The position numbers and the translations under genes are program-made. Positions 5,920 to 25,657 of a stretch of 26,831 nt of DNA are shown piece after piece. Position 1 is the first letter of the stretch. Each line of letters opens with the position of its first letter. This DNA is from Clostridia bacterium. Lineage in GTDB: Bacteria > Bacillota > Clostridia > Christensenellales > Aristaeellaceae. The stretch covers positions 1-26,831 of the forward strand of contig JAKSQG010000004.1 in the NCBI GenBank assembly GCA_024404275.1, given 5' to 3'. The notes beneath the pieces were generated by a model that saw only the letters and a program-made list of their open reading frames with translations, was not told the DNA's origin and did no database searches.

Positions 5920-7431
5920 ATGCTTTCGTACATTGCCATTGATCTGAAATCATTCTACGCCTCCGCGGAATGCGCTGCCCGGGGTCTGGACCCGCTGACC
6001 ACCCATCTGGTGGTGGCGGATGAGAGCCGTACCGAAAAGACCATTTGCCTGGCGGTCTCGCCGTCACTCAAGGCACTTGGCATTGGCGGACGTGCAAGGT
6101 TGTTTGAGGTCAATCAGAAGCTGGAGGAGGTCAACCGCCTGCGCATGAAGGCGGCAGGGGGCACGCTGAACGGCGCTTCTTCCAACGCACAAGAGCTTCT
6201 GGAGCACCCTGAATATGCCGTGAAGACCATCATTGCGCCGCCGCGCATGGCGCGCTATATGCAGCTGAGCACAAAGATCTACAGCATCTATACGCGTTAC
6301 GTTGCGCCGGAAGACATTGTGGTGTATTCCATCGATGAGGTTTTTATCCACGCTGAACCGTATCTCAAAATGTATCAGACGGATGCACGCGGGCTGGCCA
6401 TGCGCATGATTCGCGATGTGCTGAAGGAAACAGGCATTACCGCCACAGCGGGTATCGGTGAAAATCTGTATCTGTGCAAGGTGGCCATGGACATTGTCGC
6501 GAAGCATTGTGAGCCGGATGCAGATGGTGTGCGCATTGCGGAATTGACGGAGCAAAGCTATCGGGAACAGCTGTGGGAGCATCGACCGTTGACCGACTTT
6601 TGGCGTGTGGGACGCGGCATTGCAAGAAAACTGCAGGCCAACGGCATGCAATGTATGGGCGATGTGGCGCTGACCAGTCTGAAAGATGAGGACCTGTTGT
6701 ATCGGCTGTTTGGCGTCAATGCCGAGCTGCTGATCGATCATGCCTGGGGTTGGGAGCCATGCCGGGTCAGCGATATCCGTGCCTATAAGCCGGAAAGTAG
6801 CAGCCTGAGCAGCGGTCAGGTGCTGTCGATGCCCTATGAGCATGATACGGCGGCGGTCATCGTGCGTGAAATGGCGGAGGAGCTGGCGTTGGCACTGCTG
6901 GAAAAACAGCAGGTGACCAACCGCGCGGAGCTGGTCATTTGCTATGATACCGAAAACCTGACGCGGTCAGATATGGAGTATACAGGCCCTGTGCAGACCG
7001 ATCCTTATGGACGGAAGGCGCCAAAACCTGCGCACGGCTTTGAAAACCTGCCGTATACGGCTTCGGCACGGCTGATCAGCGAAGCCATGCTGAACATCTT
7101 TGAACGTGTAACCGATAAGCGTCTGCTGGTGCGCCGCGTGTATGTGATCGCCTGCAATCTGAAGGGGGCACAGGAGGAGCTTAACGAAACTGCCGTCACG
7201 GAGCAGATGGACATGTTTACCGATTATACCGCACTGGAAGCGAAAAGAGCGTAGGAAAAGGCGCGGCTGGAGCGGGAGCAGAAGGCACAGAATGCGCTGC
7301 TGCAGATTCGGCATCGGTTTGGCAAAAACGCCCTGCTCAAGGGCACCAGCCTGCAGAAAGGAGCCACGGGACGCGAAAGGCATCAGCAGATTGGCGGTCA
7401 CCGTGCGGAGACGGATGACGGAAAAATATAA
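5920..7431 (+). CDS. Y-family (UmuC/DinB-like) translesion DNA polymerase with one in-frame TAG at 7252-7254
   Basis: N-terminus IAIDLKSFYASAECAARGLDP is typical of Firmicutes ImpB/MucB/SamB-type polymerases. After the TAG the same frame continues EKARLEREQKAQNALLQIRHRFGKNALLKGTSLQKGATGRERHQQIGGHRA... to TAA 7429-7431. That is the conserved C-terminal tail of this family. The extension overlaps the next gene's ATG (7415). Confidence 0.75.
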
Positions 7432-7828
7432 AGCGATCCTGAACCTGCCGCATCCGGAATTGCGGCATCCGCGCATGAGCATGCTGAACCGTGCGGCGCA
7501 GTTTGCCTCCTTTGACGCGTTGGAGGGCTACGAGGAAGCCGTGCAGGAGGAAGCGCGGCTGACAGAACCGGAAAAAGGCATCGGCGAAGCGGAGGCGGAG
7601 GAGCTGGACCGCATGCTGCGTCGACTTTCCGAAAAGAAACAGCCGCCTGTGACGGCGCTGTGCTTTGTGCCCGATGAGCGCAAGGCGGGCGGCAGCTTTC
7701 AGACATTTACGGGGCGGCTGAAAAAGGTGGACTTGTTCAATGGTCAGCTGATCCTGACCGATGGAACGGTACTGCCGCTCGGGCGTATTCTGAAACTGGA
7801 CAGCCCGGAGGAAAAAGACGATGAATGA
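7415..7828 (+). CDS. YolD-like protein (accessory partner of Y-family polymerases)
   Basis: MTEKYKAILNLPHPELRHPRMSMLNRAAQFASFDALEGYEEAV matches the YolD-like pattern (RAxQFxxFxALxGYEEA). It sits downstream of a Y-family polymerase as in B. subtilis uvrX-yolD and yqjW-yqjX. The 7292 ORF start is rejected because it is out of frame with, and overlaps, the polymerase tail. Stop TGA. Confidence 0.65.
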   Translation: MTEKYKAILNLPHPELRHPRMSMLNRAAQFASFDALEGYEEAVQEEARLTEPEKGIGEAEAEELDRMLRRLSEKKQPPVTALCFVPDERKAGGSFQTFTGRLKKVDLFNGQLILTDGTVLPLGRILKLDSPEEKDDE

Positions 7829-8489
7829 AACGCTGATGATCGCGGGCAGGCACTTTCAGCTGCTCGGGGACGGACAGGGACCGGTGTTTCTGATGGGTGT
7901 GTTTGAGGGGGAAGCAGGCGAAAAGATCGTAAGCGAAACAAAAGCCCGCACCGCGAAGCCCTTTACGCTGGTGACCTTTGACACTGCAGACTGGGACAAT
8001 GATTTTTCCCCATGGGCTACGCCCGGTATGGAAGAGAATCGTCCCTTTGGCGGCGGCGGACCTGAAACACTGCAGATGCTCAGGAACGAAGCAATACCTT
8101 TGCTGAAGGAGCGCTTTGGAGAGACGCCTGTCATCACGGCAGGATATTCGCTGTCGGGGCTTTTTGCCCTGTGGGCACTTTATGAATGCGAAGCGTTTGC
8201 GGGCGCGGTGTGCTGCTCGGGTTCGCTGTGGGTGCAGGGCTTTATGGAATACGTGCAAAAAAAGGGGCTGCAGGCAGGGCAGAGCGTTTATCTGTCGTTG
8301 GGCGGCAAGGAAGAGAAGACTACCCATCCCATCGTCTGCACCATCGGTGACTGCACAAGGCAGATGGACCGCATATTGAAGGCGGACGCGGCTGCCCCGC
8401 GGCACACGCTGGAATGGAACAGCGGCGGACACTTTGCCGACAGCGCGAAGCGGCTGGCAAAAGGTCTTGCGTGGATGCTGGAAAAGTGA
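7821..8489 (+). CDS. Alpha/beta-hydrolase fold esterase
   Basis: GYSLSG nucleophile elbow (GxSxG). About 220 aa. ATG overlaps the yolD-like stop (ATGAATGA). Stop TGA. Confidence 0.65.
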   Translation: MNETLMIAGRHFQLLGDGQGPVFLMGVFEGEAGEKIVSETKARTAKPFTLVTFDTADWDNDFSPWATPGMEENRPFGGGGPETLQMLRNEAIPLLKERFGETPVITAGYSLSGLFALWALYECEAFAGAVCCSGSLWVQGFMEYVQKKGLQAGQSVYLSLGGKEEKTTHPIVCTIGDCTRQMDRILKADAAAPRHTLEWNSGGHFADSAKRLAKGLAWMLEK

Positions 8490-8491
8490 AT

Positions 8492-8537
8492 AAAAAAGGA
8501 GCGGGTACGCCTTTGAAAGCGTATCCGCTCTGTTTTA
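8492..8537. terminator. Bidirectional rho-independent terminator (esterase / fba convergent)
   Basis: 12-bp stem GAGCGGGTACGC / GCGTATCCGCTC (8499-8510 / 8519-8530, one G-U pair). Flanked by an A-run upstream and TGTTTT downstream. Confidence 0.7.
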
Positions 8538-8545
8538 TGGAATCA

Positions 8546-9511
8546 TCAGGCCTTGCCGTTGCAGCCCAGAACGTTGACCAGCTTGTGCTCAACGATCTGC
8601 TGGATGGCGGCACGGGCATCCGTCAGGTACTGACGGGGATCGAAGTGATCGGGATGCTCGTTGAAGTGCTTGCGCACCATGGCGGTGAAGGCCAGACGCA
8701 GGTCGGAGTCGATGTTGATCTTGCAGACAGCCATGGAAGCGGCCTTGCGCAGCTGCTCCTCGGGGATGCCGACGGCGTCGGGCATCTTGCCGCCCTGCTC
8801 GTTGATGATCTTCACAAACTGCTGGGGCACGGAAGAGGCGCCATGCAGCACGATGGGGAAGCCGGGCAGCTTCTTGGCCACTTCGTCCAGAATGTCAAAG
8901 CGGAGGGGCGGGGGAACCAGAATGCCCTCGGCGTTGCGGGTGCACTGGGCGGGGGTGAACTTGTAGGCGCCGTGGCTGGTGCCGATGGCGATGGCCAGGG
9001 AGTCGCAGCCGGTGGCGGTGGCGAACTCGATGACTTCTTCGGGACGGGTGTAGCTGCTGTCGGCGGCAGAGACGTTCACTTCGTCTTCCACGCCGGCCAG
9101 ACGGCCCAGCTCGGCCTCGACGGTCACGTTGTACTTGTGGGCATATTCGACGACCTTGCGGGTCTCTTCGATGTTCTTTTCGAAGGGCAGGCTGCTCTTA
9201 TCGATCATGACAGAGGTGAAGCCGCCATCGATGCAGGCCTTGCAGGTCTCAAAATCGGGGCCGTGGTCCAGATGCAGGGCGATGGGCAGACCGGTGGTGG
9301 CCACAGCGGCCTCGACCAGCTTGACCAGATAGGTGTGGTTGGCATAGGCACGGGCGCCCTTGGACACCTGCAGAATCAGGGGAGCATTCTGAGCCTTACC
9401 GGCTTCAACGATACCCTGAATGATTTCCATGTTATTGACATTGAAAGCGCCGACGGCGTAGCCGCCCTCGTAGGCCTTCTTGAACATTTCGCGCGTGTTG
9501 ACAAGAGCCAT
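8546..9511 (-). CDS. fba: Class II fructose-1,6-bisphosphate aldolase
   Basis: MALVNTREMFKKAYEGGYAVGAFNVNNME... and LHLDHG / HGASS motifs of class II FBA. AAGGAGG RBS. Stop TGA. Confidence 0.93.
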   Translation of the reverse strand: MALVNTREMFKKAYEGGYAVGAFNVNNMEIIQGIVEAGKAQNAPLILQVSKGARAYANHTYLVKLVEAAVATTGLPIALHLDHGPDFETCKACIDGGFTSVMIDKSSLPFEKNIEETRKVVEYAHKYNVTVEAELGRLAGVEDEVNVSAADSSYTRPEEVIEFATATGCDSLAIAIGTSHGAYKFTPAQCTRNAEGILVPPPLRFDILDEVAKKLPGFPIVLHGASSVPQQFVKIINEQGGKMPDAVGIPEEQLRKAASMAVCKINIDSDLRLAFTAMVRKHFNEHPDHFDPRQYLTDARAAIQQIVEHKLVNVLGCNGKA

Positions 9512-9545
9512 TGGAAGAAATCCTCCTTACGGTAATTTTCGGTTT

Positions 9546-9574
9546 ATTATAGCATCAAAAAGGACAGTATGCAA
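9546..9574 (-). promoter_or_regulatory. Near-consensus sigma-A promoter for fba
   Basis: Minus-strand TTGCAT (9574-9569), 17 nt spacer, TATAAT (9551-9546). Confidence 0.6.
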
Positions 9575-10045
9575 TCACTTTTTGAAAACGACCCATTTGC
9601 TGGCAGCGTAATTGAAGATGACCACCAGCACGTTGGTGATGAGCTTGACCCAAAGGTCAGCCGAGGGGATGGCCTTCATCAGCATGACCAGCAGGTTGAA
9701 CGCGGCGATGTCAAACACCACCCAGCCCAAGATGCGGGCGGCGGTAAAAAGCCACAGCTCCCGCCAGAAGCCGTTTTCGCGTGTGGCGGTGCTGTTGAAC
9801 ACGTAGCGGCGGTTGGTGAAAAAGGCAAACAGTACGGACAGCACAAAAGCCAGCACCTGACCGGAGTTGGCGATCAGCGCGTAGGAGGCACTGCCGGGCT
9901 CCATGCTGCCCAGACCAAACAGCTGACGCCACACAAAGTACACGACCCAGCTGACGGCGGTGGTCAGCACGCCGAAGATGAGATACATGATGATCTCACG
10001 CAGCTTTGCGCGGTCCTGCAGCAGGGCTTTGATTTTATTGATCAT
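9575..10045 (-). CDS. GtrA-family membrane protein
   Basis: 156 aa with four hydrophobic segments. GtrA-like pattern (YLIFGVLTTAVSWVVYFV..., C-terminal NYAASKWVVFKK). Stop TGA. Confidence 0.75.
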   Translation of the reverse strand: MINKIKALLQDRAKLREIIMYLIFGVLTTAVSWVVYFVWRQLFGLGSMEPGSASYALIANSGQVLAFVLSVLFAFFTNRRYVFNSTATRENGFWRELWLFTAARILGWVVFDIAAFNLLVMLMKAIPSADLWVKLITNVLVVIFNYAASKWVVFKK

Positions 10046-10289
10046 TGAGGATACGCTCCATTTCGTTTTTCAAAGTATCGCCCTCGTCACCGCGGGCATA
10101 GCCGGCGGAAAGGATGTCGGAAAGCGGCAGCGAGAAGGGACGTCCCTTTTGCCCGGTACGGCACTGTACGGCGTCTTCCCTGATCTCCAGCACGTGCACG
10201 TTGATGCGGCGCAGCCCTTTTGCATCGTTGACAAACAGGCATACGCTGCGCCCGCTTTCTAAGGAGTAGCGAAGAAAACGGTCAATCAT
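10035..10289 (-). CDS. Small hypothetical protein (84 aa)
   Basis: The ORF is translationally coupled on both sides. Its ATG overlaps the upstream stop (ATGATTGA), and its TAA overlaps the gtrA-like ATG by 11 nt. No family recognised. Confidence 0.5.
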   Translation of the reverse strand: MIDRFLRYSLESGRSVCLFVNDAKGLRRINVHVLEIREDAVQCRTGQKGRPFSLPLSDILSAGYARGDEGDTLKNEMERILNDQ

Positions 10290-12422: not shown

Positions 12423-13736
12423 TTACAGTGTCTTTTTGAAGCGGGTGCAGAGCAGCTGCCAGATGGGCAGCAGAATCAGATAAAAGGCAAACAGCACCGA
12501 GGCGGAAGGCGCTTCCACCGAGGAGAGCGGTACGCTGCAGGCGATGCACCAGGGGATGAGGGGAGAGATGACCACGGCGGAGTTTTCCAGATACTGCGCG
12601 CGCAGCAGGGGGTCTTCCGTTAGTTCTGCCGTCATCTGATCGGTCAACATGATGGCCAGCGTCTGGTTGCAGCTGACCATGGCCGAAAATACCGAGGCCG
12701 CCAACATGGAGGCAAAACTGCCGCCTTTTCTGGCCAGACGGCGCAGGGGAACGATCAGAAAATCAAGCAGCCCCGTGGCCTTGAAGATGCCGCTGTAGCA
12801 GGCGGCAATGAGAATGATGCAGGTGGTGCGTACCATCGAGGTGAGACCGCCGCCGCCCAGCACGGCCAAGAGCTGCGGGTCCTCCGGAACAAAGCCGTTG
12901 AGTAGCAGGGATGGCAGCTGCACAAGGGGAAAGCGCTGCACAAACAGTGTGACGGGCACGGAAATGGCAATACTGAGCAGCAGCAGCGGGCGCACCGGCA
13001 CACGGAAGAAGGCGGGAATCAGAATGGCCAGAGCGGGCAGAAAGCACCACAGATTCAGCGTGAAGGAGTTCCGCAGCAGCTCCGTGGTGGTGTTGGTGAC
13101 GGAGGCGGAGCCGGCGCCGAGGCTGAGCAGCAGATAGAGCACCAGACTCACACAGAAGGGCACGATGCAGGTGCGGATCATGCGGCCGATGTTCTGATAA
13201 ATGTCGGTCTTTGTCAGCGTCGCCACCAGCAGGGCAGAGGTGGAAACGGGGGAGCAGCGGTCGCCGAAGAAGCAGCCCGCCAGGATGGCGCCGCCAGTCC
13301 AGAGGGGAGAAAAATCCATCGAACGGGCAATGCTCATGCAGATGACGCCCATGGTGGCGGCCGTGCCGAAGGCAGTGCCGGTCAGAACCGAGATGAGCCC
13401 GCAAAGCATAAATGTCAGCGGCAAAAACAGCGCGGGACGGATAAGCCCCGAGACGGCAGATACGATGGCCGGGATGCAGCCGGAGGCTCGCCACAGGGCA
13501 GTCAGCACGCCGATGAGCAGCAGCGTGATCAGAATGTTCTTGACGGTCTTGATGCCGGACAGGCCCATTTCAAGCATCTGACGGGGTTTGAAGCCCTTCA
13601 GGGCGGCGTCGAATAAAAAGAGCGCCAGCCCGAAAAGCAGGGCCGGCACCACCGACAGGCCGCCCAGCACACAGCCAATCAGCGCGGCGCAGAACAGAAA
13701 CAGGATCAGCCCATTGCGGGCAGCGGTGTTGTTCAT
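12423..13736 (-). CDS. NhaC-family transporter (Na+/H+ antiporter-like)
   Basis: 437 aa polytopic protein with NhaC-like sequence character. AGGAG RBS. Lies 18 nt downstream of the kinase gene. Stop TAA. Confidence 0.7.
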   Translation of the reverse strand: MNNTAARNGLILFLFCAALIGCVLGGLSVVPALLFGLALFLFDAALKGFKPRQMLEMGLSGIKTVKNILITLLLIGVLTALWRASGCIPAIVSAVSGLIRPALFLPLTFMLCGLISVLTGTAFGTAATMGVICMSIARSMDFSPLWTGGAILAGCFFGDRCSPVSTSALLVATLTKTDIYQNIGRMIRTCIVPFCVSLVLYLLLSLGAGSASVTNTTTELLRNSFTLNLWCFLPALAILIPAFFRVPVRPLLLLSIAISVPVTLFVQRFPLVQLPSLLLNGFVPEDPQLLAVLGGGGLTSMVRTTCIILIAACYSGIFKATGLLDFLIVPLRRLARKGGSFASMLAASVFSAMVSCNQTLAIMLTDQMTAELTEDPLLRAQYLENSAVVISPLIPWCIACSVPLSSVEAPSASVLFAFYLILLPIWQLLCTRFKKTL

Positions 13737-13754
13737 TTTATGCTCCTGAAATAA

Positions 13755-14687
13755 TCAGTTTGCCATAGCATCATAATCGGTCATGAAGCGGCGGCGGAAT
13801 TCCTCTCCGCAGGCAAGACCGGCAGCGCGGGCGGCGGCGAATGCCCCGCCGTACACGGGCGGTACCGTGCCCATGATCATCTGTGCCCGGGGATCGGCCG
13901 CGGCACGCAGACGTTTTTCATATTCGGGAAAATGGCGGATGACGCCGCCGTTGAGCACGAGCGGGAAGGGCGTGCCGAACGATTCGGCAGCGGCATGGAT
14001 CATCAGGCACAGCTCTTTGACGCAGCCATCCACGATCTCTTCGGCATAGGGGTCACCCATATCAAGTGCCTCAAACACCACGCCGCACAGCGAGGCAATG
14101 TAGGCACGGCCTCCGGCATACACCTGCGACAGGTGGCTGATCAATTCGCCGCCGAGGCGCTTTTCAATCAGCTCCTTCATGGGGGTATAGCCGATGCGTC
14201 CGTCGTTCATTTTGACCGCGCGGTTGAGGGCGTCACGCCCGAGAATGTAGCCGCTGGAGCAGCCGTCCACCAGCCAGCCGCAGCCGCCGATATAGCGGAC
14301 CTTGCCATCGACACGGATAGTCAGCGAACTGCCGGTGCCGCAGATGAGGGCGGCGCCGTCTTTTTCTCCCAGCATACCGTAAAGCAGGCAGGGACCGTCT
14401 CCCTCCGCCGTCAGATGGCGGCAGGTGACCATTTCTTTTATGCGTTCGCCGATGCTGCCGCCAAAATAGTCGTAGCAGGCGATGCCGGCATACAGGGCGT
14501 CAATGGGGGTATCCGCCCCAATGCCCAGGGCGCGGATGCTGTTTTCATAGCGTTTGCAGGCTTCTTCCAGACCGCAGTCCAGCGGATTGGCCCCTGCAGT
14601 CACCGAACGGCACAGAATATGCCCCGTCTCGTCAAACAGTACGGCATCCGTCTTGGTGCCGCCCACATCCAGTGCAGCCAGCAGCAT
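13755..14687 (-). CDS. BadF/BadG/BcrA/BcrD-type ATPase (N-acetylglucosamine-kinase-like ASKHA kinase)
   Basis: N-terminal LAALDVGGTKTD phosphate-1 motif, then ICGTGS and GGCGWLVDGCSSGY motifs. AAGGAG RBS 15 nt after the tyrA stop. Stop TGA. Confidence 0.75.
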   Translation of the reverse strand: MLLAALDVGGTKTDAVLFDETGHILCRSVTAGANPLDCGLEEACKRYENSIRALGIGADTPIDALYAGIACYDYFGGSIGERIKEMVTCRHLTAEGDGPCLLYGMLGEKDGAALICGTGSSLTIRVDGKVRYIGGCGWLVDGCSSGYILGRDALNRAVKMNDGRIGYTPMKELIEKRLGGELISHLSQVYAGGRAYIASLCGVVFEALDMGDPYAEEIVDGCVKELCLMIHAAAESFGTPFPLVLNGGVIRHFPEYEKRLRAAADPRAQMIMGTVPPVYGGAFAAARAAGLACGEEFRRRFMTDYDAMAN

Positions 14688-17182: not shown

Positions 17183-18283
17183 TTATTTCCTTTCGTCCGC
17201 AAGATAGTCGGTGCCGTAGCGGCCGGCCAGCAGGTCGGCAATGACCAGCGCGGTCATGCTGTCCGCCACCACGCGTGCGCGGTGCAATATGGCGGGGTCA
17301 TGCCGTCCGGCAATGGCGATGGGCTTGTTTTCACCGGTCAGAAAATCAACGGTCTTCTGCTCCTTATAGATAGAGGGGGTCGGCTTGACCGCCAGACGGA
17401 AGCATACGGGCATGCCGTTGGTGATGCCGCCGTTGATGCCGCCATTGCGGTTGGTCTCGGTGATGACCGTGCCGTTTTCCATACGGAAGGCGTCGTTGTA
17501 TTCGCTGCCGCGCAGACGGACGCCGTCAAAACCGATGCCAAAGTCAATGCCCTTGATGCCGGGAATGGAAAGCATCGCGTGCGCCAGCAGGCTTTCCACC
17601 GTGTCAAACCACGGTTCGCCAAGGCCCGCGGGCAACCCGGTCACGGCAGTCTCGAGAATGCCGCCCACGCTGTCGCCTTCGGCCCCCGCCGCTTCAATGA
17701 CGGCGCGCATGCTTTCGCCGGCAGCGTCGTCCAGAACGGCAAACACCTGCCCGTTCAGATGGGTGATGTCCTCATTCAGGTTTCCAAAGGCGCGGTCGCG
17801 AACGCCGCCGCATTCCTGCACGTGCGTACCGATCAGAATGCCCTTTTGCTTCAGAGCACCTGCCAGAATGGCGCAGGAGGCGACCAGTGCCGCCGTGATA
17901 CGGCCAGAAAAATGTCCGCCGCCGCGGGCATCCTGAAAGCCGTGATATTTGCACTGCGCCGTATAATCGGCATGCCCGGGGCGGGCGAGACCACTCAGAG
18001 CGGCATAATCACCGCTTCTTTGATTGCTGTTGGGAATGAGCAGACACAGCGGTGTGCCGGTGGTCTTGCCGTTCACCATGCCCGATACGATGCGGAAGGG
18101 GTCTTCCTCACGTCTTGCCGTACCCGTCTTTCCCGCGGGGCGGCGCAGCAGCAGCTGATGGGCGATCAGATCGGTATCCACCGTGATGCCGGGAGCCAGA
18201 CCATCCAATACGGCGCCAATCTATGCTCCATGGCTTTCCCCAAACAGCGTCAGCGTGATGTTTTGTCCAAAGCTGTTTTTCAT
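17183..18283 (-). CDS. aroC: Chorismate synthase with one in-frame TAG (plus-strand CTA at 18221-18223)
   Basis: The listed ORF (17183..18208) begins mid-domain at LDGLAPG. Reading on upstream gives MKNSFGQNITLTLFGESHGA-TAG-IGAVLDGLAPG..., which contains the conserved FGESHG N-terminus. ATG 18283-18281 overlaps the aroB stop as ATGA. Read this way the protein is 366 aa, normal for AroC. Stop TAA. Confidence 0.85.
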
Positions 18284-19406: not shown

Positions 19407-19418
19407 GTATACACAAAC

Positions 19419-19668
19419 CGACGACGCAGAGAAAAGCCGGAGAGGTCTGATTCAGCGAGGGAAGGACAGTGCAAGCTTCCAGCAGACGGCCGGGTAATAT
19501 GGACTGCGGAGGGCAGCCATGAATAGGCTGACGGCAGACGCCCGTTACAGCGCCGCGGATATGATGGTATCCGGCTGAGGGGTTTTGTCATAAAACCCAA
19601 AGACAAGGTGGCACCGAGAACAATGATTTGTTCGCCCTTGATTACACAAAGTAATCAGGGGCGTTTTT
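19419..19668 (+). promoter_or_regulatory. T-box riboswitch leader, tryptophan specifier (UGG)
   Basis: Stem I lower helix is CGCAG (19425-19429) / CUGCG (19504-19508). The specifier loop 3' side is GUAAUA-UGG-A, with UGG at 19500-19502. An AGAGG bulge and an AGUGCAAG distal loop are present. Stem III is GGGUUUU..AAAACCC (19579-19597). The T-box sequence is CAAGGUGGCACCGAG, with a UGGC bulge at 19609-19612; C matches the G73 discriminator of bacterial tRNA-Trp. The antiterminator (19604-19608/19636-19640 and 19618-19623/19628-19633) competes with a 13-bp terminator (19633-19645/19651-19663) followed by TTTTT. Confidence 0.85.
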
Positions 19669-19685
19669 CTTTGGAGGCAAGAGCA

Positions 19686-20612
19686 ATGAAGCGTAAAACC
19701 GTCATCCTCGGCGCGGGGCATGTGGGCAGCCATGTGGCGTCCATGCTCGCCGCCCGGAATGTGTGTGAGGAGATCGTACTGGTCGATCTCATACCCGAAA
19801 AAGCCGCGGCACAGGCACTGGATGTGGCGGACAGCGTATCCTCCCTTCCGGGAAGCGCTATTGTGAGGGCGGGAGAGCATGCCGAATGCGCGGATGCTGA
19901 CCTTATCATCTGCGCCATCGGCGAGCCCCGCAAGCCCGGTCAGACACGGCTGGACCTGCTCGACCGTTCGGTGGTGCTGTGCGGCGCGCTGATCGAACAG
20001 CTCAAAAGCATTACGATCACTTGCCCCGTGATGACCATCACGAACCCCGCGGACATCGTCGCCCACCTGATGCGTAAGGGGCTTGGACTTCCCAGAGAAA
20101 AATGCTTTGGTACAGGCACCTTGCTGGACACTGCCCGCCTCAGACGCATCACGGCGGAAAAGCTCGGCATCGACCGCCGCAGCGTGCAGGTATTCGCCCT
20201 TGGCGAGCACGGTGACAGCTCGGTGGCGGCACTCTCCTGCGGCACGGCGATGGGACAGCCGCTGGAAGCCTTCTCCCTCCCGGCGGAGGAGATGGAAAAT
20301 GCCATGCGGATGGCGGGGATGGACATCATCAACGGCAAAGGCTCCACGGAGTTTGGCATCGGCGCGGCGGCGGCGGATATGGCACTCGCCATCCTGCGGG
20401 ATGAAAAGCGTGTGATGCCCGCCAGCGTACAGCTGATGGGCGAATACGGAGCCCGCGATATCCACTGCGGCGTGCCCTGCATCATCGGTGCAAACGGCAT
20501 TGAAAAGATCATCGAACTGCCGCTTAACGAAAGAGAACAGACCGCCCTGAAGCATTCGCTTCAGGTCATCCAAACCCACACGCAAAAAGCCCTGTGCGCT
20601 TACGGCTCTTAA
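19686..20612 (+). CDS. LDH/MDH-superfamily L-2-hydroxyacid dehydrogenase
   Basis: ILGAGHVGS Rossmann motif, GEPRKPGQTRLDL loop, TNPADIV, LDTARLR and GEHGDS catalytic motifs. ATG 19686 lies 8 nt after GGAGG. The 19608 ORF start is rejected because it lies inside the T-box terminator. Stop TAA. Confidence 0.8.
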   Translation: MKRKTVILGAGHVGSHVASMLAARNVCEEIVLVDLIPEKAAAQALDVADSVSSLPGSAIVRAGEHAECADADLIICAIGEPRKPGQTRLDLLDRSVVLCGALIEQLKSITITCPVMTITNPADIVAHLMRKGLGLPREKCFGTGTLLDTARLRRITAEKLGIDRRSVQVFALGEHGDSSVAALSCGTAMGQPLEAFSLPAEEMENAMRMAGMDIINGKGSTEFGIGAAAADMALAILRDEKRVMPASVQLMGEYGARDIHCGVPCIIGANGIEKIIELPLNEREQTALKHSLQVIQTHTQKALCAYGS

Positions 20613-20662
20613 AAAGAGCGTAACGATAAAAAAGAAACCCAAATAATAAGGAGGAACAAACC

Positions 20663-21640
20663 ATGAAAAAGCTGCTTTCCGTCATCCTGACCCTCGCTCT
20701 GCTGCTCTCCTGCACCGCCGCGCTGGCGGACACCTACCGCATCGCCATCGTGCAGCCTTTGACCCACACCTCCCTTGACCAGATCCGTGAAACCATCGTA
20801 AAAGAACTGAATGCCTCCGGTGATAAAGACATCGAGATCCTGACCGCCAACGCCAACGGCGACGGCTCCGCCCTGTACAACATCATCAGCAAGTATCAGG
20901 CTGAAAGCGTTGACATGATCATTGCCATCGCCACCTCCACCGCCCAGACGGCCAAGTCCGTGTACATCGGTACCGATACCCCCGTCATCTTCTCCGCTGT
21001 TTCCGACCCCAATGCCGCCGGCATGGTGGGCGATGACTGCGCCAACATCACGGGCGTGAGCAACAACATTCCCGCTGCCGAGATCGTCAAGCTGATCTTC
21101 AACTTCCAGCCCGATTGCAAAAAGATCGGTTTCGTCTACACCTCCAGCGAGGCCAACTCCGTCAGCACCATCCGTGCCGCCAAGGCCTACTGCGAAGCCG
21201 AAAACATCGCTTATGAAGAAGTTTCCATCTCCAACCTGAGCGAACTGCAGACCGCCGTTGAGACCCTCATCACCAAGGGTGTCGATGCCCTGTACACCGG
21301 CAACGACAACTCCATCGCTTCCGCCATGGCGACCTACACCGATGTGGCCTATACCGCCGGCATCCCCGTGTACTGCGGCGCTGACTCCATGGTCGCGGAC
21401 GGCGGCTTTGCCACCATCGGCGTCAACTATGTCCAGCTGGGTGAGCAGACCGCCGCGATGGCGCTGCGCATCAAGAACGGTGCTGCCATTGCCGACAATC
21501 CCTATGAGACCTTGACCAACTATGCCAAGTTCGTCAACATGCAGGCCGTTGAACGCTTTGGCGGCAACTTTGCCGAAAGCGCTTATGAAGGCTATACCGT
21601 GCTGGTCGAAGCCGACGGCACCAACCATTTCGGCGAGTAA
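20663..21640 (+). CDS. ABC transporter substrate-binding lipoprotein (ABC_sub_bind / TrpX-like family)
   Basis: Signal peptide with lipobox LLLSC. IAIVQPLTHTSLDQ motif typical of the COG2984 family. AAGGAGG RBS. Stop TAA. Confidence 0.8.
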   Translation: MKKLLSVILTLALLLSCTAALADTYRIAIVQPLTHTSLDQIRETIVKELNASGDKDIEILTANANGDGSALYNIISKYQAESVDMIIAIATSTAQTAKSVYIGTDTPVIFSAVSDPNAAGMVGDDCANITGVSNNIPAAEIVKLIFNFQPDCKKIGFVYTSSEANSVSTIRAAKAYCEAENIAYEEVSISNLSELQTAVETLITKGVDALYTGNDNSIASAMATYTDVAYTAGIPVYCGADSMVADGGFATIGVNYVQLGEQTAAMALRIKNGAAIADNPYETLTNYAKFVNMQAVERFGGNFAESAYEGYTVLVEADGTNHFGE

Positions 21641-21658
21641 GCAAAAGCGGATAACTGA

Positions 21659-21680
21659 CCGGAAGCCCTCGGGCTTCCGG
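21659..21680 (+). other. Intra-operon GC-rich hairpin after the binding-protein gene
   Basis: CCGGAAGCC-CTCG-GGCTTCCGG, a 9-bp stem, with only a weak T tract after it. Likely an mRNA stabiliser or partial attenuator, as is common after ABC binding-protein genes. Confidence 0.4.
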
Positions 21681-21709
21681 ATTTCCGCTGTTCCGAAGGA
21701 GGAAAAACC

Positions 21710-22663
21710 GTGGTTCTGATCAATATGCTGATCTCCGCCATCAGTCAGGGACTTTTGTATGCTCCCATGGCGCTGGGCGTATTTGTCACCTTCAAAATTC
21801 TGAAAACGCCCGACCTGACCGTGGATGGCAGCTTTGTTGTGGGTATGACCGTCTGCGCTGCCGTGACCATTGCGGGCTACCCCGTGCTGGCACTGTTTGC
21901 AGCCCTTGCGGCGGGAGCCATCGCCGGTCTTTGTACGGCACTGCTGCAGACCAGGCTCAAGATCGAACCCATTCTGTGCGGCATTCTCGTGGCGACCGGT
22001 CTGTATACGGTCAATTATGCTGTATTGGGCGGTCAGAGCAACCTTTATCTGCAGCGTCAGGTGATGAATGCCGCAGGCTATCCCGTCAATCAGGCGGCGG
22101 ATACGGTCTACAAAAGCTTTGGTCAGCTGCTCAATCCTTTGGGCGGTCAGTGGAAAAACACCAACACGCAGGTTATGCTGCTGACGCTGGGCATCGTGCT
22201 GGTGCTGGTCGTGCTCCTTGGTATCTTCTTCTTCACCCGTCCCGGCATGGCCATTCGCGGCACCGGCGACAATGAAGAAATGGTGCGTTCCTCCTCCATC
22301 AATGCCGATCTGACGCGTACCGCCGGCATCATGCTGGCCAACGCGCTGGTGGCCTTCAGCGGCGGTCTGCTCTGTCAGCAGCAGCGCTATGCCGATCTGA
22401 ACTGCGGCAGCGGCATGCTGGTCATGGGTCTGGCTTCCGTCATCATCGGTCAGGTGCTGGGCGGCAACCGCGGCCTGATCGTGGGTCTGATTTCTGCGGC
22501 AGGCGGCTCCATCCTGTACCGCATCGTGCTGCAGCTGGCTTACAGCATCGATCTGCCGTCCTATTCCGTTAAGCTCCTGTCCACGCTCATCGTCATCGTG
22601 GCGCTGGGTGTGCCGCTGCTCAAAAAGCACGGTTTCAAGCTTCCGGGAGGGAAAAAGGCATGA
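21710..22663 (+). CDS. ABC transporter permease (COG4120 / TrpY-like)
   Basis: 317 aa polytopic protein. GTG start 8 nt after GGAGG. Stop TGA overlaps the ATPase ATG (ATGA). Confidence 0.8.
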   Translation: MVLINMLISAISQGLLYAPMALGVFVTFKILKTPDLTVDGSFVVGMTVCAAVTIAGYPVLALFAALAAGAIAGLCTALLQTRLKIEPILCGILVATGLYTVNYAVLGGQSNLYLQRQVMNAAGYPVNQAADTVYKSFGQLLNPLGGQWKNTNTQVMLLTLGIVLVLVVLLGIFFFTRPGMAIRGTGDNEEMVRSSSINADLTRTAGIMLANALVAFSGGLLCQQQRYADLNCGSGMLVMGLASVIIGQVLGGNRGLIVGLISAAGGSILYRIVLQLAYSIDLPSYSVKLLSTLIVIVALGVPLLKKHGFKLPGGKKA

Positions 22664-23445
22664 ACGACTGTGAATTGAACATTCAAAACCTGACCAAATG
22701 CTTCGAAAAAGGCACCGCCAATGAAAAGGTTGCGCTTGACCATCTGAATCTGATGGTTCCTGCCGGACAGTTTGTTACTGTGCTGGGCACCAACGGCAGC
22801 GGCAAAAGCACGCTGTTCAATGCCATTCTGGGCAAGCTGCGTCCCGATGAGGGCACCATTCTGCTGGGCGGTGAGGATATCACCCGACAGAAGGATTACA
22901 AACGTGCCCTGAACATCGGCTGTCTGTACCAGAATCCCCTGCGCGGCACGGCGCCCGATATGACCATTGAGGAAAACCTCGCCCTGGCCTATACCCGCAA
23001 ATCCTCGCGTTCCTTTTTTGCCGTCAACCGTCGGGACAGCGCTTACTTCCGTGAACTGTTGGCTACCCTGAATATGGGCCTGTAGGACCGTATGAAGACC
23101 CGCATGGGACTGCTCTCCGGCGGACAGCGACAGGCAGCGTCGCTCCTGATGGCGACCATCGCCAAACCGCGACTGCTGCTGCTCGATGAGCACACCGCTG
23201 CCCTTGACCCCGGCGCGGCGGACAAGGTGATGGAACTGACCAAACGCATCACAGCGGAGCAGGGCATCACCACCCTGATGGTCACGCATGATATGGATTA
23301 CGCGCTCAGCATTGGTACCCGTACCATTATGCTGTCCGCGGGAAAAGTGGTCATGGATATCAGCGGGGAAGAGCGTGAGCAGATGACCTCCGGTCATCTG
23401 GCAGAGCTGTTCTACACTGCCCGTCAGAAAAAGCTCGGACAATAA
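22660..23445 (+). CDS. ABC transporter ATP-binding protein (COG1101 / TrpZ-like) with one in-frame TAG at 23083-23085
   Basis: Walker A GTNGSGKST and the Q-loop lie before the TAG. The LSGGQRQA signature, Walker B LLLLDEHTAALD and H-loop MVTHDM follow in the same frame (...LATLNMGL-TAG-DRMKTRMGLLSGGQRQA...). Read through, the protein is 261 aa, normal for this family. Stop TAA. Confidence 0.85.
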
Positions 23446-23466
23446 CACAGCAATATACGAAAAAGC

Positions 23467-23496
23467 AACACTCCGGCTTTGTCGGAGTGTTGTTTT
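23467..23496. terminator. Rho-independent terminator (ABC operon / azlD convergent)
   Basis: AACACTCCG / CGGAGTGTT 9-bp stem (23467-23475 / 23483-23491) followed by GTTTT. An A-run lies upstream. Confidence 0.7.
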
Positions 23497-23512
23497 ATAA
23501 TAGGTAAAACGA

Positions 23513-23809
23513 TCAGATGAGCCCTACCAGAAAGGCGACGGCGCAGGCGGCGACAGCCACGGTCAGCAGCTTTTGTTTGCACAGTGCCAGCACGATGGCG
23601 GCGGCAAAGGCGGCGATGCCGGCAGCATCATTGCCCGTTGCGTGGATCATGGCGGGAAAGGTCATGGCGGCCAGCGTCACATAGGGCACATAATACAGAA
23701 AAGAACGGATAAAACGGTTGGTGATGGGGCGGCGGATCAGTGTGAGCGGCAGCACACGCAGTGCGTAGGTCACAAGCGCGATCAGAAAGATATAGCCGAG
23801 ATTGCTCAT
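23513..23809 (-). CDS. azlD: AzlD-family branched-chain amino acid transport protein
   Basis: 98 aa hydrophobic protein. ATGA overlap with the azlC stop. Stop TGA. Confidence 0.8.
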   Translation of the reverse strand: MSNLGYIFLIALVTYALRVLPLTLIRRPITNRFIRSFLYYVPYVTLAAMTFPAMIHATGNDAAGIAAFAAAIVLALCKQKLLTVAVAACAVAFLVGLI

Positions 23810-24513: not shown

Positions 24514-24552
24514 ACATACCCTCCACGGGAAAAAATCAGACAGCGCCTATTG

Positions 24553-24593
24553 TAAAACAAACCTCCGCCGTTGTAAAGCACAATCGGCGGAGA
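24553..24593 (-). terminator. Rho-independent terminator after the histidine kinase gene
   Basis: Minus-strand CTCCGCCG..CGGCGGAG stem (plus coordinates 24563-24570 / 24585-24592) followed by GTTTGTTTT. Confidence 0.6.
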
Positions 24594-24598
24594 AAGGG

Positions 24599-25657
24599 TT
24601 ATTTTGCCGCGCTGTCAAGCGGCAGACAGACCGAAAATGTGCTGCCTTTACCGGGAACACTCTCGGCATGGATGGTGCCGCCCGAAAGCTTGATGATGCG
24701 CTGCACCATGGTCAGCCCCAGACCGTTGCCTTCCCCATGATGCGCTTTGTCACCCTGATAGAATTTTTCAAAAATATGCGCCAGTGTCTCCTCTGTCATG
24801 CCGATGCCCGTGTCGCCAAAGCGGATGATCGCCTGCCGCCCTTCGACTTTCAGGGAGACCGAGATGGTACCGCCCTCTGGCGTGAACTTGATGGCGTTGT
24901 TCAAAAGATTGATCCACGCCTGCTCCAGCATCTGCTTGTTGCCGCGGCAGCGAAGCTCGACAAGGTCGATGTCGAGCATCAGCTCTTTGGCCTCCCATTG
25001 CTTTTCAAGCAGCAGTATGCAGGAGCGCAGCTGTTCATCGAGGGAGAACTCGGTCTTTTCTGTCACAATCTATTGCGCTTCCAGCTTCGAAAGCAAAAGG
25101 ATGTTGGTGGCAAGGCTTGCCAGCCGCTCGGATTCATCGGCAATAATGGTAGCGTATTCCCGCCGCTCCGCATCGGTCAGGTCCTCCCTCTGCAGCTGGC
25201 GGGCAAAACCGCGGATGGAAACGATGGGCGTTTTGAACTCGTGGGAAAAACTGTTGATAAAGTCGTTGCGGAACATTTCGATGCCGCTCAGCTCCTGCGT
25301 CATGCGGTTGAAGGAGCGGATCAGATCGTTCATTTCATCCGAGTCTTCTCCTTCATTTTCGGGCAGCTTGACCGAAAAATCTCCCTTTGCAACGCGCTCG
25401 GTGGCGTCCTTGATCTGCATGATGGGACTCAGAAAGTATTTGCCGATCCACGCGGTGATGACGGTGGCGATGATGCCGGAAATCAGCACCAGCCGCACAG
25501 GGGACAAGACCTGTGTCAAAAGCATTGCCGCGTAGGGCGTGCCGGGGAACAACTGCGCCGAAAAATACAGCGCGCTGGTCAGAAAGTTGGAGAGCAGCAT
25601 GATAAAGAACACATACAGCACCAGGCGCATGCGCAGGCTGCCCATACGGTTTCTCAT
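24599..25657 (-). CDS. Sensor histidine kinase with one in-frame TAG (plus-strand CTA at 25070-25072)
   Basis: The two listed ORFs (25070..25657 and 24599..25066) share one frame and are separated only by TAG plus one codon. The junction reads ...LLLSKLEAQ-TAG-IVTEKTEFSLDEQLR... The upstream half has two TM segments, HAMP and the H-box SHEFKTP. The downstream half has the N (LLNNAIKF), G1 (FGDTGIG) and G2 (GNGLGL) boxes. There is no RBS or ATG for the downstream half. Stop TAA. Confidence 0.85.

What the first reader, a model, noticed from the sequence alone, without database searches (positions are those of the whole stretch)
5920..25657. UAG behaves as a sense codon: four conserved genes carry an in-frame TAG, and none of 28 gene ends uses TAG
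Seen directly in the sequence: the Y-family polymerase (TAG 7252-7254), chorismate synthase (CTA 18221-18223, minus strand), an ABC ATPase (TAG 23083-23085) and a histidine kinase (CTA 25070-25072, minus strand) each have exactly one in-frame TAG. After each TAG the same frame continues with family-conserved sequence. There are no frameshifts or other stops, and no RBS or start codon precedes any downstream piece. Reading through restores normal protein lengths (503, 366, 261 and 352 aa). It also restores operon coupling: the aroB stop and aroC start form ATGA, and the polymerase tail overlaps the yolD-like ATG. I checked all 28 visible gene termini by hand and found 16 TGA, 12 TAA and 0 TAG. 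Four independent amber-only pseudogenes in 27 kb seems unlikely, particularly one in aroC inside an otherwise intact aro operon. The better explanation is that UAG is translated in this organism, by codon reassignment or constitutive suppression. Chromosomal UAG reassignment in a free-living bacterium would be unusual. Known bacterial stop changes involve UGA. UAG recoding is known from pyrrolysine users (restricted to methyltransferase genes) and from some phages (UAG to Gln). The equivalent columns in homologues, as I remember them, are polar or small. For example, the ABC family reads LGLE[DN]R here and kinases read LENQ[EQ]I, so Gln or Glu fit best. The encoded residue cannot be settled from four sites. 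The four sites share only a purine at +4, with no obvious common downstream hairpin.
Basis: partly seen in the sequence, partly recalled or inferred. Interest (0 to 1): 0.92.

Follow-up and report, generated by a model that had tools for sequence, protein, structure and literature searches.

The report
Gut bacterium reads UAG as glutamate
In this uncultured gut or rumen Clostridia bacterium and its sister species, the stop codon UAG sits inside many intact, conserved genes where relatives have glutamate, so it is almost certainly translated as an amino acid, a change not previously reported for a bacterial chromosome.

Summary
The window is the whole 26.8-kb contig of NCBI MAG GCA_024500545.1 ('Clostridia bacterium', Oscillospirales-like). 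It has exactly four in-frame TAGs, in polY, aroC, an ABC ATPase and a histidine kinase. All 28 gene ends are TGA or TAA.

The TAGs are real. The ABC, kinase and aroC TAGs recur in 10, 6 and 1 independently assembled contigs from other samples (95-99% DNA identity). Substitutions after them are almost all synonymous.

A strain contig extending 6.8 kb past the window adds two TAG-interrupted genes (DegV, DUF1836) and a polymorphic one (nhaC).

The sister species GCA_045599485.1 (87-91% DNA identity) shares the aroC TAG and has its own in NUDIX, badF and LDH.

In 5 of 7 informative comparisons the TAG partner is Glu (four GAG, one GAA). These include a position that is Glu in 120 of 120 ABC homologues and the Nudix-box 'RE' glutamate.

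No interruption uses TAA or TGA, and no RNA structure follows the TAGs.

Best reading: UAG is a sense codon, most likely Glu, in this genus-level lineage.

Not testable here: a tRNA(CUA) gene, RF1 status, whole-genome statistics. The absence of TAG stops is weak evidence alone (relatives use 6.6% TAG).

The parts
7252..7254 (+). In-frame TAG, codon 445 of the Y-family DNA polymerase
   Evidence: It lies in a variable charged linker: homologue column A92/E7/Q7/K4. The sister species has CGG, Arg. The conserved C-terminal motif follows it. This TAG was seen only in GCA_024500545.1.
5920..7431 (+). Y-family polymerase gene read through the TAG (503 aa); its end overlaps the yolD-like ATG at 7415
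   Evidence: Pfam IMS, IMS_HHH and IMS_C. Homologues are modally 503 aa and cover 98% of the query. The sister orthologue is an uninterrupted 500 aa.
18221..18223 (-). In-frame TAG, codon 21 of chorismate synthase (aroC), directly after the conserved FGESHG motif
   Evidence: The same TAG is present in strain contig L179 and in sister species L181. The column in 80 relatives is variable: Y22 A16 E11 M10 Q7, and none has TAG.
17183..18283 (-). aroC read through the TAG (366 aa); its ATG overlaps the aroB stop (ATGA), with GGAGG upstream
   Evidence: Pfam Chorismate_synt positions 2-326 of 327 in one stretch. Against strain L179 it has 29 synonymous and 5 nonsynonymous differences.
23083..23085 (+). 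In-frame TAG, codon 142 of the ABC transporter ATPase (motif NMGL-x-DRM)
   Evidence: The TAG is shared by 10 other-sample contigs, L169-L177. The sister species has GAG. The column is Glu in 120 of 120 homologues.
22660..23445 (+). ABC ATPase gene read through the TAG (261 aa)
   Evidence: Pfam ABC_tran 26-180 spans the TAG. Homologues are 257-265 aa. Synonymous:nonsynonymous differences are 19-23:0-2.
25070..25072 (-). In-frame TAG, codon 196 of the histidine kinase (LSKLEAQ-x-IV)
   Evidence: The TAG is shared by L084-L088 and L169. The sister species has GAG. The column in 145 representatives is E48 Q24 S13 T9 D9.
24599..25657 (-). Histidine kinase gene read through the TAG (352 aa)
   Evidence: Pfam HAMP, HisKA and HATPase_c. 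Homologues align in one stretch, 1-348. Across the strain contigs, about 12 distinct synonymous and 1 nonsynonymous change lie after the TAG.
12882..12884 (-). GAG (Glu), codon 285 of the Na+/H+ antiporter; this codon is TAG in another strain of the same species
   Evidence: L179 has TAG here, in a contig 96.2% identical to the window. Two other samples carry C-terminal pieces that start just after this codon.
14013..14015 (-). GAG (Glu), codon 225 of the BadF-type ATPase; TAG in the sister species and in one strain close to the window's species
   Evidence: P0388 ends exactly at codon 224.
888..890 (+). GAA (Glu), the 'RE' glutamate of the Nudix box; TAG in the sister species
   Evidence: The Pfam NUDIX match spans the sister's TAG.
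19869..19871 (+). GCG (Ala), codon 88 of lactate dehydrogenase; TAG in the sister species (a non-Glu partner)
   Evidence: The Ldh_1_N match 4-142 spans the sister's TAG.

Best explanation
UAG is decoded as an amino acid, most probably glutamate, throughout the genome of this Oscillospirales-like bacterium (MAG GCA_024500545.1) and its sister species (GCA_045599485.1).

Shown here:
- TAG occurs inside about one gene in five.
- The TAGs are stable across strains.
- The reading frame continues under purifying selection.
- Interruptions are exclusively TAG.
- TAG is never seen as a terminator in 35 gene ends.
- TAG and GAG (Glu) replace each other between strains and species, including at functionally invariant glutamates.

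Inferred mechanism:
- A tRNA with anticodon CUA is charged with Glu. It is most simply a tRNA-Glu copy whose anticodon changed from CUC to CUA.
- This is plausible if, like most bacteria lacking GlnRS, this lineage uses a non-discriminating GluRS. That enzyme already accepts different bases at anticodon position 36.
- RF1 is either lost or weakened.

Evolutionary reading (inferred): TAG was already the rarest stop in this order (6.6%). Once it became readable, GAG-to-TAG transversions became nearly neutral and are now accumulating independently in each lineage. One TAG site is shared by the two species and three are private to each. So this looks like a young reassignment that is still spreading.
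For: 1. The TAGs are real and old.
- The ABC TAG is in 10 other-sample contigs, the kinase TAG in 6, and the aroC TAG in 1.
- The aroC TAG is also in the sister species.

2. There is selection after the TAG. Synonymous:nonsynonymous counts match those of intact neighbours.

3. The phenomenon extends beyond the four sites.
- nhaC is TAG in strain L179 where the window has GAG.
- DegV codon 192 and DUF1836 codon 23 are TAG in L182, with Pfam matches spanning them.
- The sister species has TAG in NUDIX, badF and LDH, again with Pfam matches spanning them.

4. Only TAG interrupts genes. There are 0 internal TAA or TGA among at least 8 interruptions. P is about 0.005 under random nonsense mutation. 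It is lower still under a G-to-T bias, which would also turn the abundant GAA codons into TAA.

5. The residue is Glu.
- Partner codons are GAG x4, GAA x1, CGG x1 and GCG x1. Five Glu out of 7 has P = 1.6e-5 by amino-acid composition.
- The ABC column is Glu in 120 of 120 homologues.
- The NUDIX site is the Nudix-box 'RE' glutamate.
- Glu is the commonest residue in the kinase column.
- A rough log-odds over the family columns gives E +4.5, against A +0.7 and Q +0.6.

6. No TAG terminator is seen in 35 gene ends of the species.

7. There is no downstream RNA structure. z-scores are -0.69, +1.56, -1.41 and +0.21. There are no Rfam hits.

8. The trait is confined to a clade. About 340 aro-operon orthologues in 80 other Oscillospirales genomes have no in-frame TAG, and those genomes do end genes with TAG.

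9. A non-discriminating GluRS distinguishes tRNA-Glu from tRNA-Gln only at anticodon position 36 and accepts both (PMC2978374).
Against: - No tRNA gene lies in any of the roughly 60 kb read from the two species. So no tRNA(CUA) has been seen.
- prfA (RF1) status is unknown.
- Only about 35 kb of the species and about 36 kb of its sister were examined, not whole genomes.
- The absence of TAG stops is not significant by itself (P about 0.09).
- Two partner codons are not Glu: Arg in polY and Ala in LDH. Both lie in variable positions.
- Three TAGs are followed within 2-5 codons by an in-frame start codon, so split translation cannot be excluded for each gene taken alone.
- One sister-species gene (a GNAT acetyltransferase) has a TAG 12 codons before a TAA. 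It could be either a real stop or a sense codon.
- A 2026 screen of about 2.7 million assemblies listed no bacterial TAG reassignment. The trait was either missed or scored as uncertain there.
- There is no protein-level evidence.
Confidence: 0.8

Rival explanations
1. UAG is translated, but not specifically as glutamate. It could be Gln from a supE-like tRNA-Gln(CUA). It could also be a mixture inserted by near-cognate or ambiguous decoding while RF1 is still active (leaky or constitutive suppression rather than reassignment).
For: - Gln is the second commonest residue in the kinase column and occurs in the aroC and polY columns.
- TAG-to-Gln is the usual outcome in recoded phages and in many eukaryotes.
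- RF1 and tRNA status are unknown.
- TAG is still rare: 4 codons against 233 GAG. That would fit incomplete or costly decoding.
Against: - No partner codon is CAG or CAA, although CAG-to-TAG is a transition and CAG is as common as GAG.
- The ABC position is Glu in 120 of 120 homologues, and the NUDIX position is a motif glutamate.
- The rough log-odds favour E over Q by about 4 nats from family columns alone, and by far more once the orthologue pairs are added.
Confidence: 0.09
2. The TAGs terminate translation. The genes are then either recent pseudogenes, or split genes whose downstream halves are made separately by reinitiation at the nearby ATG, GTG or TTG.
For: - In-frame starts lie 2-5 codons after three of the TAGs, and a weak AGGA precedes the ABC ATG.
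- Public gene callers report the pieces as separate genes.
- Gaps in the accession numbering suggest that NCBI gives polY and aroC no protein accession (an inference from the numbering).
Against: - The breaks fall inside single domains. aroC would lose its conserved N-terminal FGESHG. The ABC ATPase would have Walker A and the signature motif on separate chains. The Nudix box, Ldh_1_N and DegV would each be cut.
- At least 9 interruptions are all TAG, with no TAA, TGA or frameshift.
- The TAGs are conserved across strains, with normal purifying selection on both sides.
- The short aroC upstream piece (20 codons) keeps its strong Shine-Dalgarno and its ATGA coupling to aroB.
- About one gene in five being broken, in two species that persist in many samples, is implausible.
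Confidence: 0.05
3. UAG encodes pyrrolysine or another non-canonical residue genome-wide, as recently proposed for some archaea.
For: - UAG is the Pyl codon.
- Genome-wide UAG-to-Pyl codes have been reported in archaea.
- The presence or absence of pylTSBCD could not be checked.
Against: - No methylamine methyltransferase gene or pyl gene lies in about 60 kb.
- TAG aligns with invariant or catalytic glutamates and exchanges with GAG. A bulky lysine derivative would not be tolerated at such positions.
Confidence: 0.02
4. The TAGs are an artefact: assembly or sequencing error, a modified base miscalled as T, or contamination of the bin by an organism with a known recoded nuclear code.
For: - The source is a metagenome-assembled genome.
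- Stop-codon inferences in MAGs are known to be prone to contamination artefacts.
Against: - The same TAGs occur in more than 15 contigs assembled independently from different runs and projects. Those contigs differ from the window by 1-5% elsewhere.
- The TAGs share no sequence motif around them.
- The contig is typically bacterial: operons, Shine-Dalgarno sites, Clostridia-like proteins and synteny with the sister MAG.
Confidence: 0.01

Closest known systems
Bacterial UGA reassignments: table 4 (UGA to Trp in Mycoplasmatales, insect endosymbionts and some Eggerthellaceae) and table 25 (UGA to Gly in Absconditabacteria and Gracilibacteria)
   Same: - A stop codon becomes a sense codon across a bacterial chromosome.
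- It is recognised by in-frame stops in conserved genes at positions of one amino acid.
- It is confined to a clade.
- It is expected to involve a new tRNA anticodon and loss of one release factor.
   Different: - The codon here is UAG, read by RF1, not UGA, read by RF2.
- The amino acid is Glu.
- The genome is neither AT-rich nor visibly reduced: the window is 58% G+C.
- The change is shallow, at about genus level, and TAG is still rare.
- All bacterial stop reassignments in the literature searched involve UGA.
TAG-recoded gut bacteriophages (code 15, TAG to Gln; crAss-like, Lak and others)
   Same: The same codon is recoded, and the setting is also gut microbiomes. Decoding is by suppressor tRNA(CUA) (PMC9523058 and 10.1101/2021.08.26.457843).
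   Different: - Those are phage genomes in standard-code hosts, and the amino acid is Gln.
- Here the genes are chromosomal housekeeping genes (aro operon, LDH, kinase), and the aligned residue is Glu, never Gln.
Genome-wide UAG-to-pyrrolysine code in some archaea (10.1101/2024.09.30.615893), and classical Pyl use in bacteria such as Desulfitobacterium and Acetohalobium
   Same: This is the only reported genome-wide UAG reassignment in prokaryotes. TAG occurs in ordinary genes, and coding density under table 11 is little affected.
   Different: - It is archaeal, and the residue is Pyl, made and charged by pylBCD/pylS/pylT.
- Here TAG replaces invariant Glu and exchanges with GAG.
- No pyl or methyltransferase genes were seen in the sequence read.
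Eukaryotic UAR-to-Glu codes (Blastocrithidia nonstop; peritrich ciliates)
   Same: The same amino acid is assigned to UAG (PMC12153298).
   Different: - These are eukaryotic nuclear codes in which UAA is reassigned as well, with eRF1 changes.
- Here UAA remains a normal stop: 12 of 28 gene ends.
Laboratory amber suppressors and the RF1-deleted recoded E. coli (C321.deltaA and later strains)
   Same: Mechanistically this is the closest model. A tRNA(CUA) reads UAG, and RF1 can be removed once TAG stops are rare or absent (PMC11903333).
   Different: Those strains are engineered. The present case is natural and is polymorphic between wild strains.

Membership tests
Genome-wide stop-codon reassignment (alternative genetic code) | In-frame occurrences of the codon in many conserved genes, with the frame conserved on both sides | tested here: met
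   There are 4 sites in the window, 3 more in other strains of the species and 4 in the sister species. Pfam matches span them, and selection after them is purifying.
Genome-wide stop-codon reassignment (alternative genetic code) | The codon aligns consistently with one amino acid in homologues | tested here: met
   Glu is the partner at 5 of 7 orthologous sites. The ABC column is Glu in 120 of 120 homologues, and the NUDIX site is the Nudix-box Glu. The log-odds favour E.
Genome-wide stop-codon reassignment (alternative genetic code) | The codon is no longer used as a terminator | tested here: inconclusive
   0 of 35 gene ends in the species use TAG, but relatives use TAG at only 6.6%, so P is about 0.09. 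The sister species has one ambiguous case, a GNAT gene.
Genome-wide stop-codon reassignment (alternative genetic code) | A tRNA whose anticodon (CUA) reads the codon | not testable with these tools
   No tRNA gene lies in the window or in L169, L178-L182. The rest of the MAG could not be fetched.
Genome-wide stop-codon reassignment (alternative genetic code) | Loss or alteration of the cognate release factor (RF1, prfA) | not testable with these tools
   prfA is not in the sequence available.
Genome-wide stop-codon reassignment (alternative genetic code) | Phylogenetically coherent distribution | tested here: met
   The trait is present in the species (many strains) and in its sister (87-91% DNA identity). 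There is no in-frame TAG in about 340 aro-operon orthologues from 80 other Oscillospirales genomes.
Pyrrolysine decoding | pylTSBCD genes, and TAG in methylamine methyltransferase genes | tested here: inconclusive
   Neither was seen in about 60 kb. Absence from the whole genome cannot be shown.
Pyrrolysine decoding | TAG positions compatible with a Pyl or lysine-like residue | tested here: not met
   TAG replaces invariant or catalytic Glu and exchanges with GAG.
Phage code 15 (TAG to Gln) | Phage genome context, and TAG aligned with Gln | tested here: not met
   The genes are chromosomal housekeeping genes. No partner codon is CAG or CAA.
Pseudogenes by nonsense mutation | Relaxed selection after the stop, a mixture of stop types and frameshifts, and no conservation between strains | tested here: not met
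   Synonymous:nonsynonymous counts after the TAGs match those of intact neighbouring genes. All interruptions are TAG. The TAGs are shared by up to 10 strains.
Structure-dependent recoding (SECIS- or PYLIS-like) | A conserved RNA structure downstream of the recoded stop | tested here: not met
   The 100 nt after each TAG fold no better than shuffled sequence (z from -1.41 to +1.56). There are no Rfam hits.

The most novel reading that the evidence does not exclude
This is the first natural bacterial lineage with a complete UAG-to-glutamate reassignment, meaning a Glu-type tRNA(CUA) is present and RF1 is lost or disabled. It arose recently, at about genus level, in a free-living gut or rumen Clostridia bacterium with ordinary G+C content. 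It has been caught while new TAG codons are still being created from GAG independently in each species and strain.
Probability: 0.5. Interest if true: 0.95.

Novelty: new variant of a known kind. Interest (0 to 1): 0.9.

Why it matters
Every bacterial stop-codon reassignment reported so far involves UGA. UAG reassignment is known from phages, eukaryotes, organelles, Pyl users and engineered E. coli.

A natural chromosomal UAG sense codon, apparently Glu, would add a new bacterial genetic code. It would show that RF1-dependent termination can be given up in the wild.

It would also be unusually informative about how codes change:
- The reassignment is shallow, in two sister species.
- TAG sites are polymorphic between strains.
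- The ancestral TAG stop usage was already low.

The codon-capture and ambiguous-intermediate models could therefore be tested directly on population data.

There are practical consequences too:
- About one gene in five in these genomes is split or annotated as a pseudogene under table 11. This lowers apparent MAG quality and pollutes protein databases with fragments.
- A natural Glu-charging tRNA(CUA) and its synthetase would interest people working on genetic-code engineering.
- Such a host would also change expectations for TAG-recoded phages in the same habitats.

Tried and rejected
- Exact look-ups of aroB (start at 19278), of the 141-aa ABC piece and of FBA returned nothing, or only the source MAG without DNA.
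- The genome-contig scan with aroC found only relatives at 70% identity or less. The metagenome scan with ArgZ found only relatives at 82% or less, with no synteny. Neither gave more of this organism's genome.
- DNA of GCA_024500545.1 itself could not be fetched because its file is too large. So tRNA(CUA), prfA and pyl genes could not be searched.
- I tried an all-against-all six-frame scan for conserved in-frame TAGs across 182 loci. It was swamped by conserved off-frame and antisense alignments. An amino-acid-composition classifier did not separate true frames well enough (10 true positives against 9 false positives on the test locus). Both were abandoned.
- The sister's GNAT gene (TAG, then 12 codons, then TAA) could not be resolved. 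It has no PDB homologue, and the Pfam and NCBIfam matches end before the TAG.

Explanations considered and rejected:
- A-to-I mRNA editing by TadA. From my own knowledge it needs a UACG-type loop, and it would turn UAG into a Trp codon; neither fits.
- A modified base miscalled as T. The sites share no motif and recur in independent assemblies.
- A purine at +4 as a signal. It is seen at 8 of 9 sites, but the first codon position is purine-rich anyway.
- Contamination by a recoded eukaryote or phage. The operon structure and the synteny with the sister MAG are bacterial.

Full report
**What the window is**

The window is 26,831 bases at about 58% G+C. It carries 28 tightly packed bacterial genes (Pfam):
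- an ArgZ-like enzyme, NUDIX, an FMN reductase, TldD/PmbA and a ROK regulator;
- a Y-family polymerase with a yolD-like gene and an esterase;
- class II aldolase, GtrA, a large membrane protein, an Na+/H+ antiporter and a BadF-type ATPase;
- the aro operon (prephenate dehydrogenase, aroA, aroQ, aroC, aroB);
- LDH, an ABC transporter (binding protein, permease, ATPase), AzlCD and a two-component system.

Exact-sequence look-ups show that the window is the whole 26,832-bp contig of NCBI MAG GCA_024500545.1, 'Clostridia bacterium' (proteins MCQ2453051-068). The nearest named relatives are Oscillospirales from rumen and gut, such as Lawsonibacter, Ventricola and Acutalibacteraceae. aroC identity to them is 70% or less.

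**Checking the observation**

The four TAGs, the four read-through ORFs and the count of 16 TGA, 12 TAA and 0 TAG are exactly as described.
- Pfam profiles run through or on both sides of the TAGs.
- Read-through lengths equal those of the homologues.
- The polymerase tail after its TAG carries the family's conserved C-terminal motif.
- aroC starts at an ATG that overlaps the aroB stop, behind a GGAGG. Twenty conserved codons (MKNxFG...FGESHG) then precede the TAG.

- In-frame start codons do follow three of the TAGs within 2-5 codons, and public gene callers call those pieces. Only poor Shine-Dalgarno matches precede them.
- The lack of TAG stops is not significant alone. Orthologues in 160 related loci end in TAG in only 29 of 438 cases, or 6.6%. 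Four amber-only interruptions would have P about 0.07 under random nonsense mutation.

**Are the TAGs real?**

The table-11 gene fragments that the TAGs create are on record in many independent assemblies.
- The 195-aa kinase piece is in five other-sample contigs.
- The 117-aa ABC piece is in nine.
- The 341-aa aroC piece is in one.

These contigs are 94.9-99.4% identical to the window, so they are different strains. A codon-by-codon comparison shows the ABC TAG in 10 contigs, the kinase TAG in 6 and the aroC TAG in 1. The polymerase TAG was seen only in the source MAG. Assembly error and in-silico artefact are excluded for three of the four sites.

**Are the genes alive?**

Between strains, substitutions are overwhelmingly synonymous on both sides of the TAGs (synonymous:nonsynonymous per strain contig):
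- kinase 16:0-1, with about 12 distinct synonymous and 1 nonsynonymous change after the TAG;
- ABC ATPase 19-23:0-2;
- aroC 29:5;
- for comparison, intact aroA 41:9 and pdh 28:4.

These are not decaying pseudogenes.

**The phenomenon extends beyond the window**
- Strain contig L179 (96.2% identity) has an extra in-frame TAG in the antiporter, where the window has GAG.
- Strain contig L182 reaches 6.8 kb to the left of the window. There, DegV carries a TAG at codon 192 (Pfam DegV 4-270 in one stretch). DUF1836 carries one at codon 23 (Pfam 20-115). All eight new gene ends are TAA or TGA.
- A homologue search with the ABC protein found a 97%-identical full-length protein from a second NCBI MAG, GCA_045599485.1. 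Three loci from that genome (L178, L180, L181) are syntenic with the whole window at 87-91% DNA identity, so it is a sister species.
- The sister shares the aroC TAG.
- It has sense codons at the other three window sites.
- It has its own in-frame TAGs in NUDIX, badF and LDH, each spanned by a Pfam match.
- The badF TAG also seems to occur in a strain close to the window's species, and the nhaC split in two more samples.

So roughly one gene in five carries a TAG in both species. None carries an internal TAA, TGA or frameshift.

**Which amino acid?**

The partner codon in the other species or strain is:

| Site | Partner codon |
|---|---|
| ABC 142 | GAG (Glu) |
| Kinase 196 | GAG (Glu) |
| nhaC 285 | GAG (Glu) |
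| badF 225 | GAG (Glu) |
| NUDIX 53 | GAA (Glu) |
| polY 445 | CGG (Arg) |
| LDH 88 | GCG (Ala) |

- Five Glu out of seven has P = 1.6e-5 given 6.1% Glu in these proteins. Four GAG out of seven has P = 0.04 even against the set of one-step TAG precursors.
- The ABC position is Glu in 120 of 120 homologues, between invariant M-G-L and R-M.
- The NUDIX position is the 'RE' glutamate of the Nudix box GX5EX7REUXEEXGU. The motif definition comes from established knowledge of that family.
- The kinase column is E48, Q24, S13 among 145 representatives.
- The aroC and polymerase columns are variable but do include E.
- A rough Codetta-style log-odds puts E at +4.5, against A +0.7 and Q +0.6, from the four family columns. 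The gap is far larger once orthologue pairs are added.
- No partner codon is CAG or CAA, although CAG-to-TAG is a transition and CAG is as frequent as GAG. Gln, the usual outcome of TAG recoding elsewhere, is therefore disfavoured.
- A bulky Pyl at catalytic or invariant glutamates is implausible.

**Other tests**
- The 100 nt after each TAG fold no better than shuffled sequence.
- Rfam finds nothing in the window or in two related loci.
- No tRNA gene lies in any locus of the two species.
- About 340 aro-operon orthologues from 80 other Oscillospirales genomes have no in-frame TAG, and they use TAG as a stop at a low rate. The trait is therefore confined to this small clade.

**How it most likely works**

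Shown: UAG does not behave as a terminator in these genes, it is tolerated only as TAG, and it is interchangeable with GAG.

Inferred:
- A tRNA with anticodon CUA is charged with Glu. It most simply derives from tRNA-Glu(CUC) by one anticodon change.
- From my own knowledge, most bacteria that lack GlnRS, including most Clostridia, use a non-discriminating GluRS.
- That enzyme must accept both YUC and YUG anticodons, so it does not read position 36 strictly (PMC2978374). This would make a CUA anticodon chargeable.
- Because the tRNA body would be of the Glu type, the amidotransferase would leave the Glu in place.
- RF1 would then be dispensable, or under selection to weaken.

The evolutionary picture:
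- The order already used TAG for only about 7% of stops, which lowers the cost of capturing the codon.
- One TAG site is shared by the two species and three are private to each. Other sites are polymorphic within the species.
- This indicates that the decoding ability predates the species split, and that GAG-to-TAG changes are now drifting in.
- TAG is still rare: 4 TAG against 233 GAG codons in the window. That suggests either recency or a residual cost.

**Comparison with what is known**

In the literature held here, every bacterial stop reassignment involves UGA (tables 4 and 25). This holds through the 2021 Codetta screen, a 2026 paper on Actinomycetota, a 2026 k-mer screen of about 2.7 million assemblies, and the 2026 gTranslate preprint.

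UAG recoding is known in four other settings:
- gut phages (to Gln);
- archaea with a genome-wide Pyl code;
- eukaryotes (UAR to Gln or Glu);
- engineered E. coli.

The present case works like a classical stop-codon reassignment. It meets the criteria that could be tested here: many conserved in-frame sites, one consistent amino acid, and clade coherence. The two molecular hallmarks, tRNA(CUA) and RF1 loss, could not be tested. I therefore file it as a new variant of a known kind. It would be a candidate new bacterial genetic code, UAG = Glu.

**Verdict**
- Confidence is about 0.9 that UAG is translated in this lineage.
- Confidence is about 0.8 for the combined statement that the residue is glutamate and the effect is genome-wide.
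- Interest is 0.9.

Noticed in passing
window 1-26831: The tetranucleotide CTAG is completely absent, against about 9 expected from trinucleotide frequencies. CTAG avoidance is common in bacteria, but here it also means that no TAG codon is ever preceded by C.
   Followed up: partly
window 1825-3237 (-), 8414-9535 (+), 10288-12207 (+), 19545-20642 (-), 20609-22630 (-): Very long antisense 'shadow' ORFs (up to 673 aa) lie opposite real genes. Some are longer than the true gene: 470 aa opposite the 462-aa TldD. The two I scanned have no Pfam hit. They defeat longest-ORF gene calling, and they made a six-frame TAG scan unusable.
   Followed up: partly
window 5920-7431, 17183-18283 (NCBI record of GCA_024500545.1): The NCBI protein accessions run MCQ2453051 to MCQ2453068 across the contig, with numbering gaps that fit polY and aroC having no protein. 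PGAP has presumably annotated them as pseudogenes. Public protein collections hold the table-11 fragments (444, 341, 141+117 and 195+155 aa) as separate proteins.
   Followed up: partly
L178 8448-8933 (-), sister species: A GNAT acetyltransferase 'ends' at TAG, but the frame continues for 12 codons (EGRITQRYWIQL) to a TAA. This is either the only TAG terminator seen in the two species or one more sense TAG. The Pfam, NCBIfam and PDB searches could not decide.
   Followed up: partly
window 10035-10289 (-): A small 84-aa ORF lies between gtrA and the large membrane protein and overlaps both neighbours. It is conserved in the sister species (91 aa, L180 12578-12853). It is called as a gene there but has no Pfam family.
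   Followed up: no
window 7415-7431 and 7821-7828: The polymerase, the yolD-like gene and the esterase form a chain of overlapping genes: a 17-nt overlap and then an 8-nt overlap. The yolD-like protein has no Pfam match at E <= 0.001 and is only 77% identical to the sister's copy. It is the least conserved gene of the block.
   Followed up: no
P0241-P0247 (homologues of the polymerase): The top-scoring polymerase homologues are 554-692 aa long because they contain internal tandem duplications of 50-100 residues. These look like assembly chimeras in public metagenome contigs, not real variants.
   Followed up: no
L078 (JAMPAJ010000001.1, 1.49-Mb scaffold labelled 'Alistipes sp.'): A scaffold labelled as a Bacteroidota genus carries an aroC 63% identical to this Clostridia gene, ranking among Oscillospirales hits. 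The taxonomic label of that MAG may be wrong.
   Followed up: no
window 26553-26831 (+): A MalK-like sugar ABC ATPase starts at about 26553 and runs off the right end of the contig. In strain L169 and sister L178 it is complete (373 aa) and ends in TGA.
   Followed up: partly
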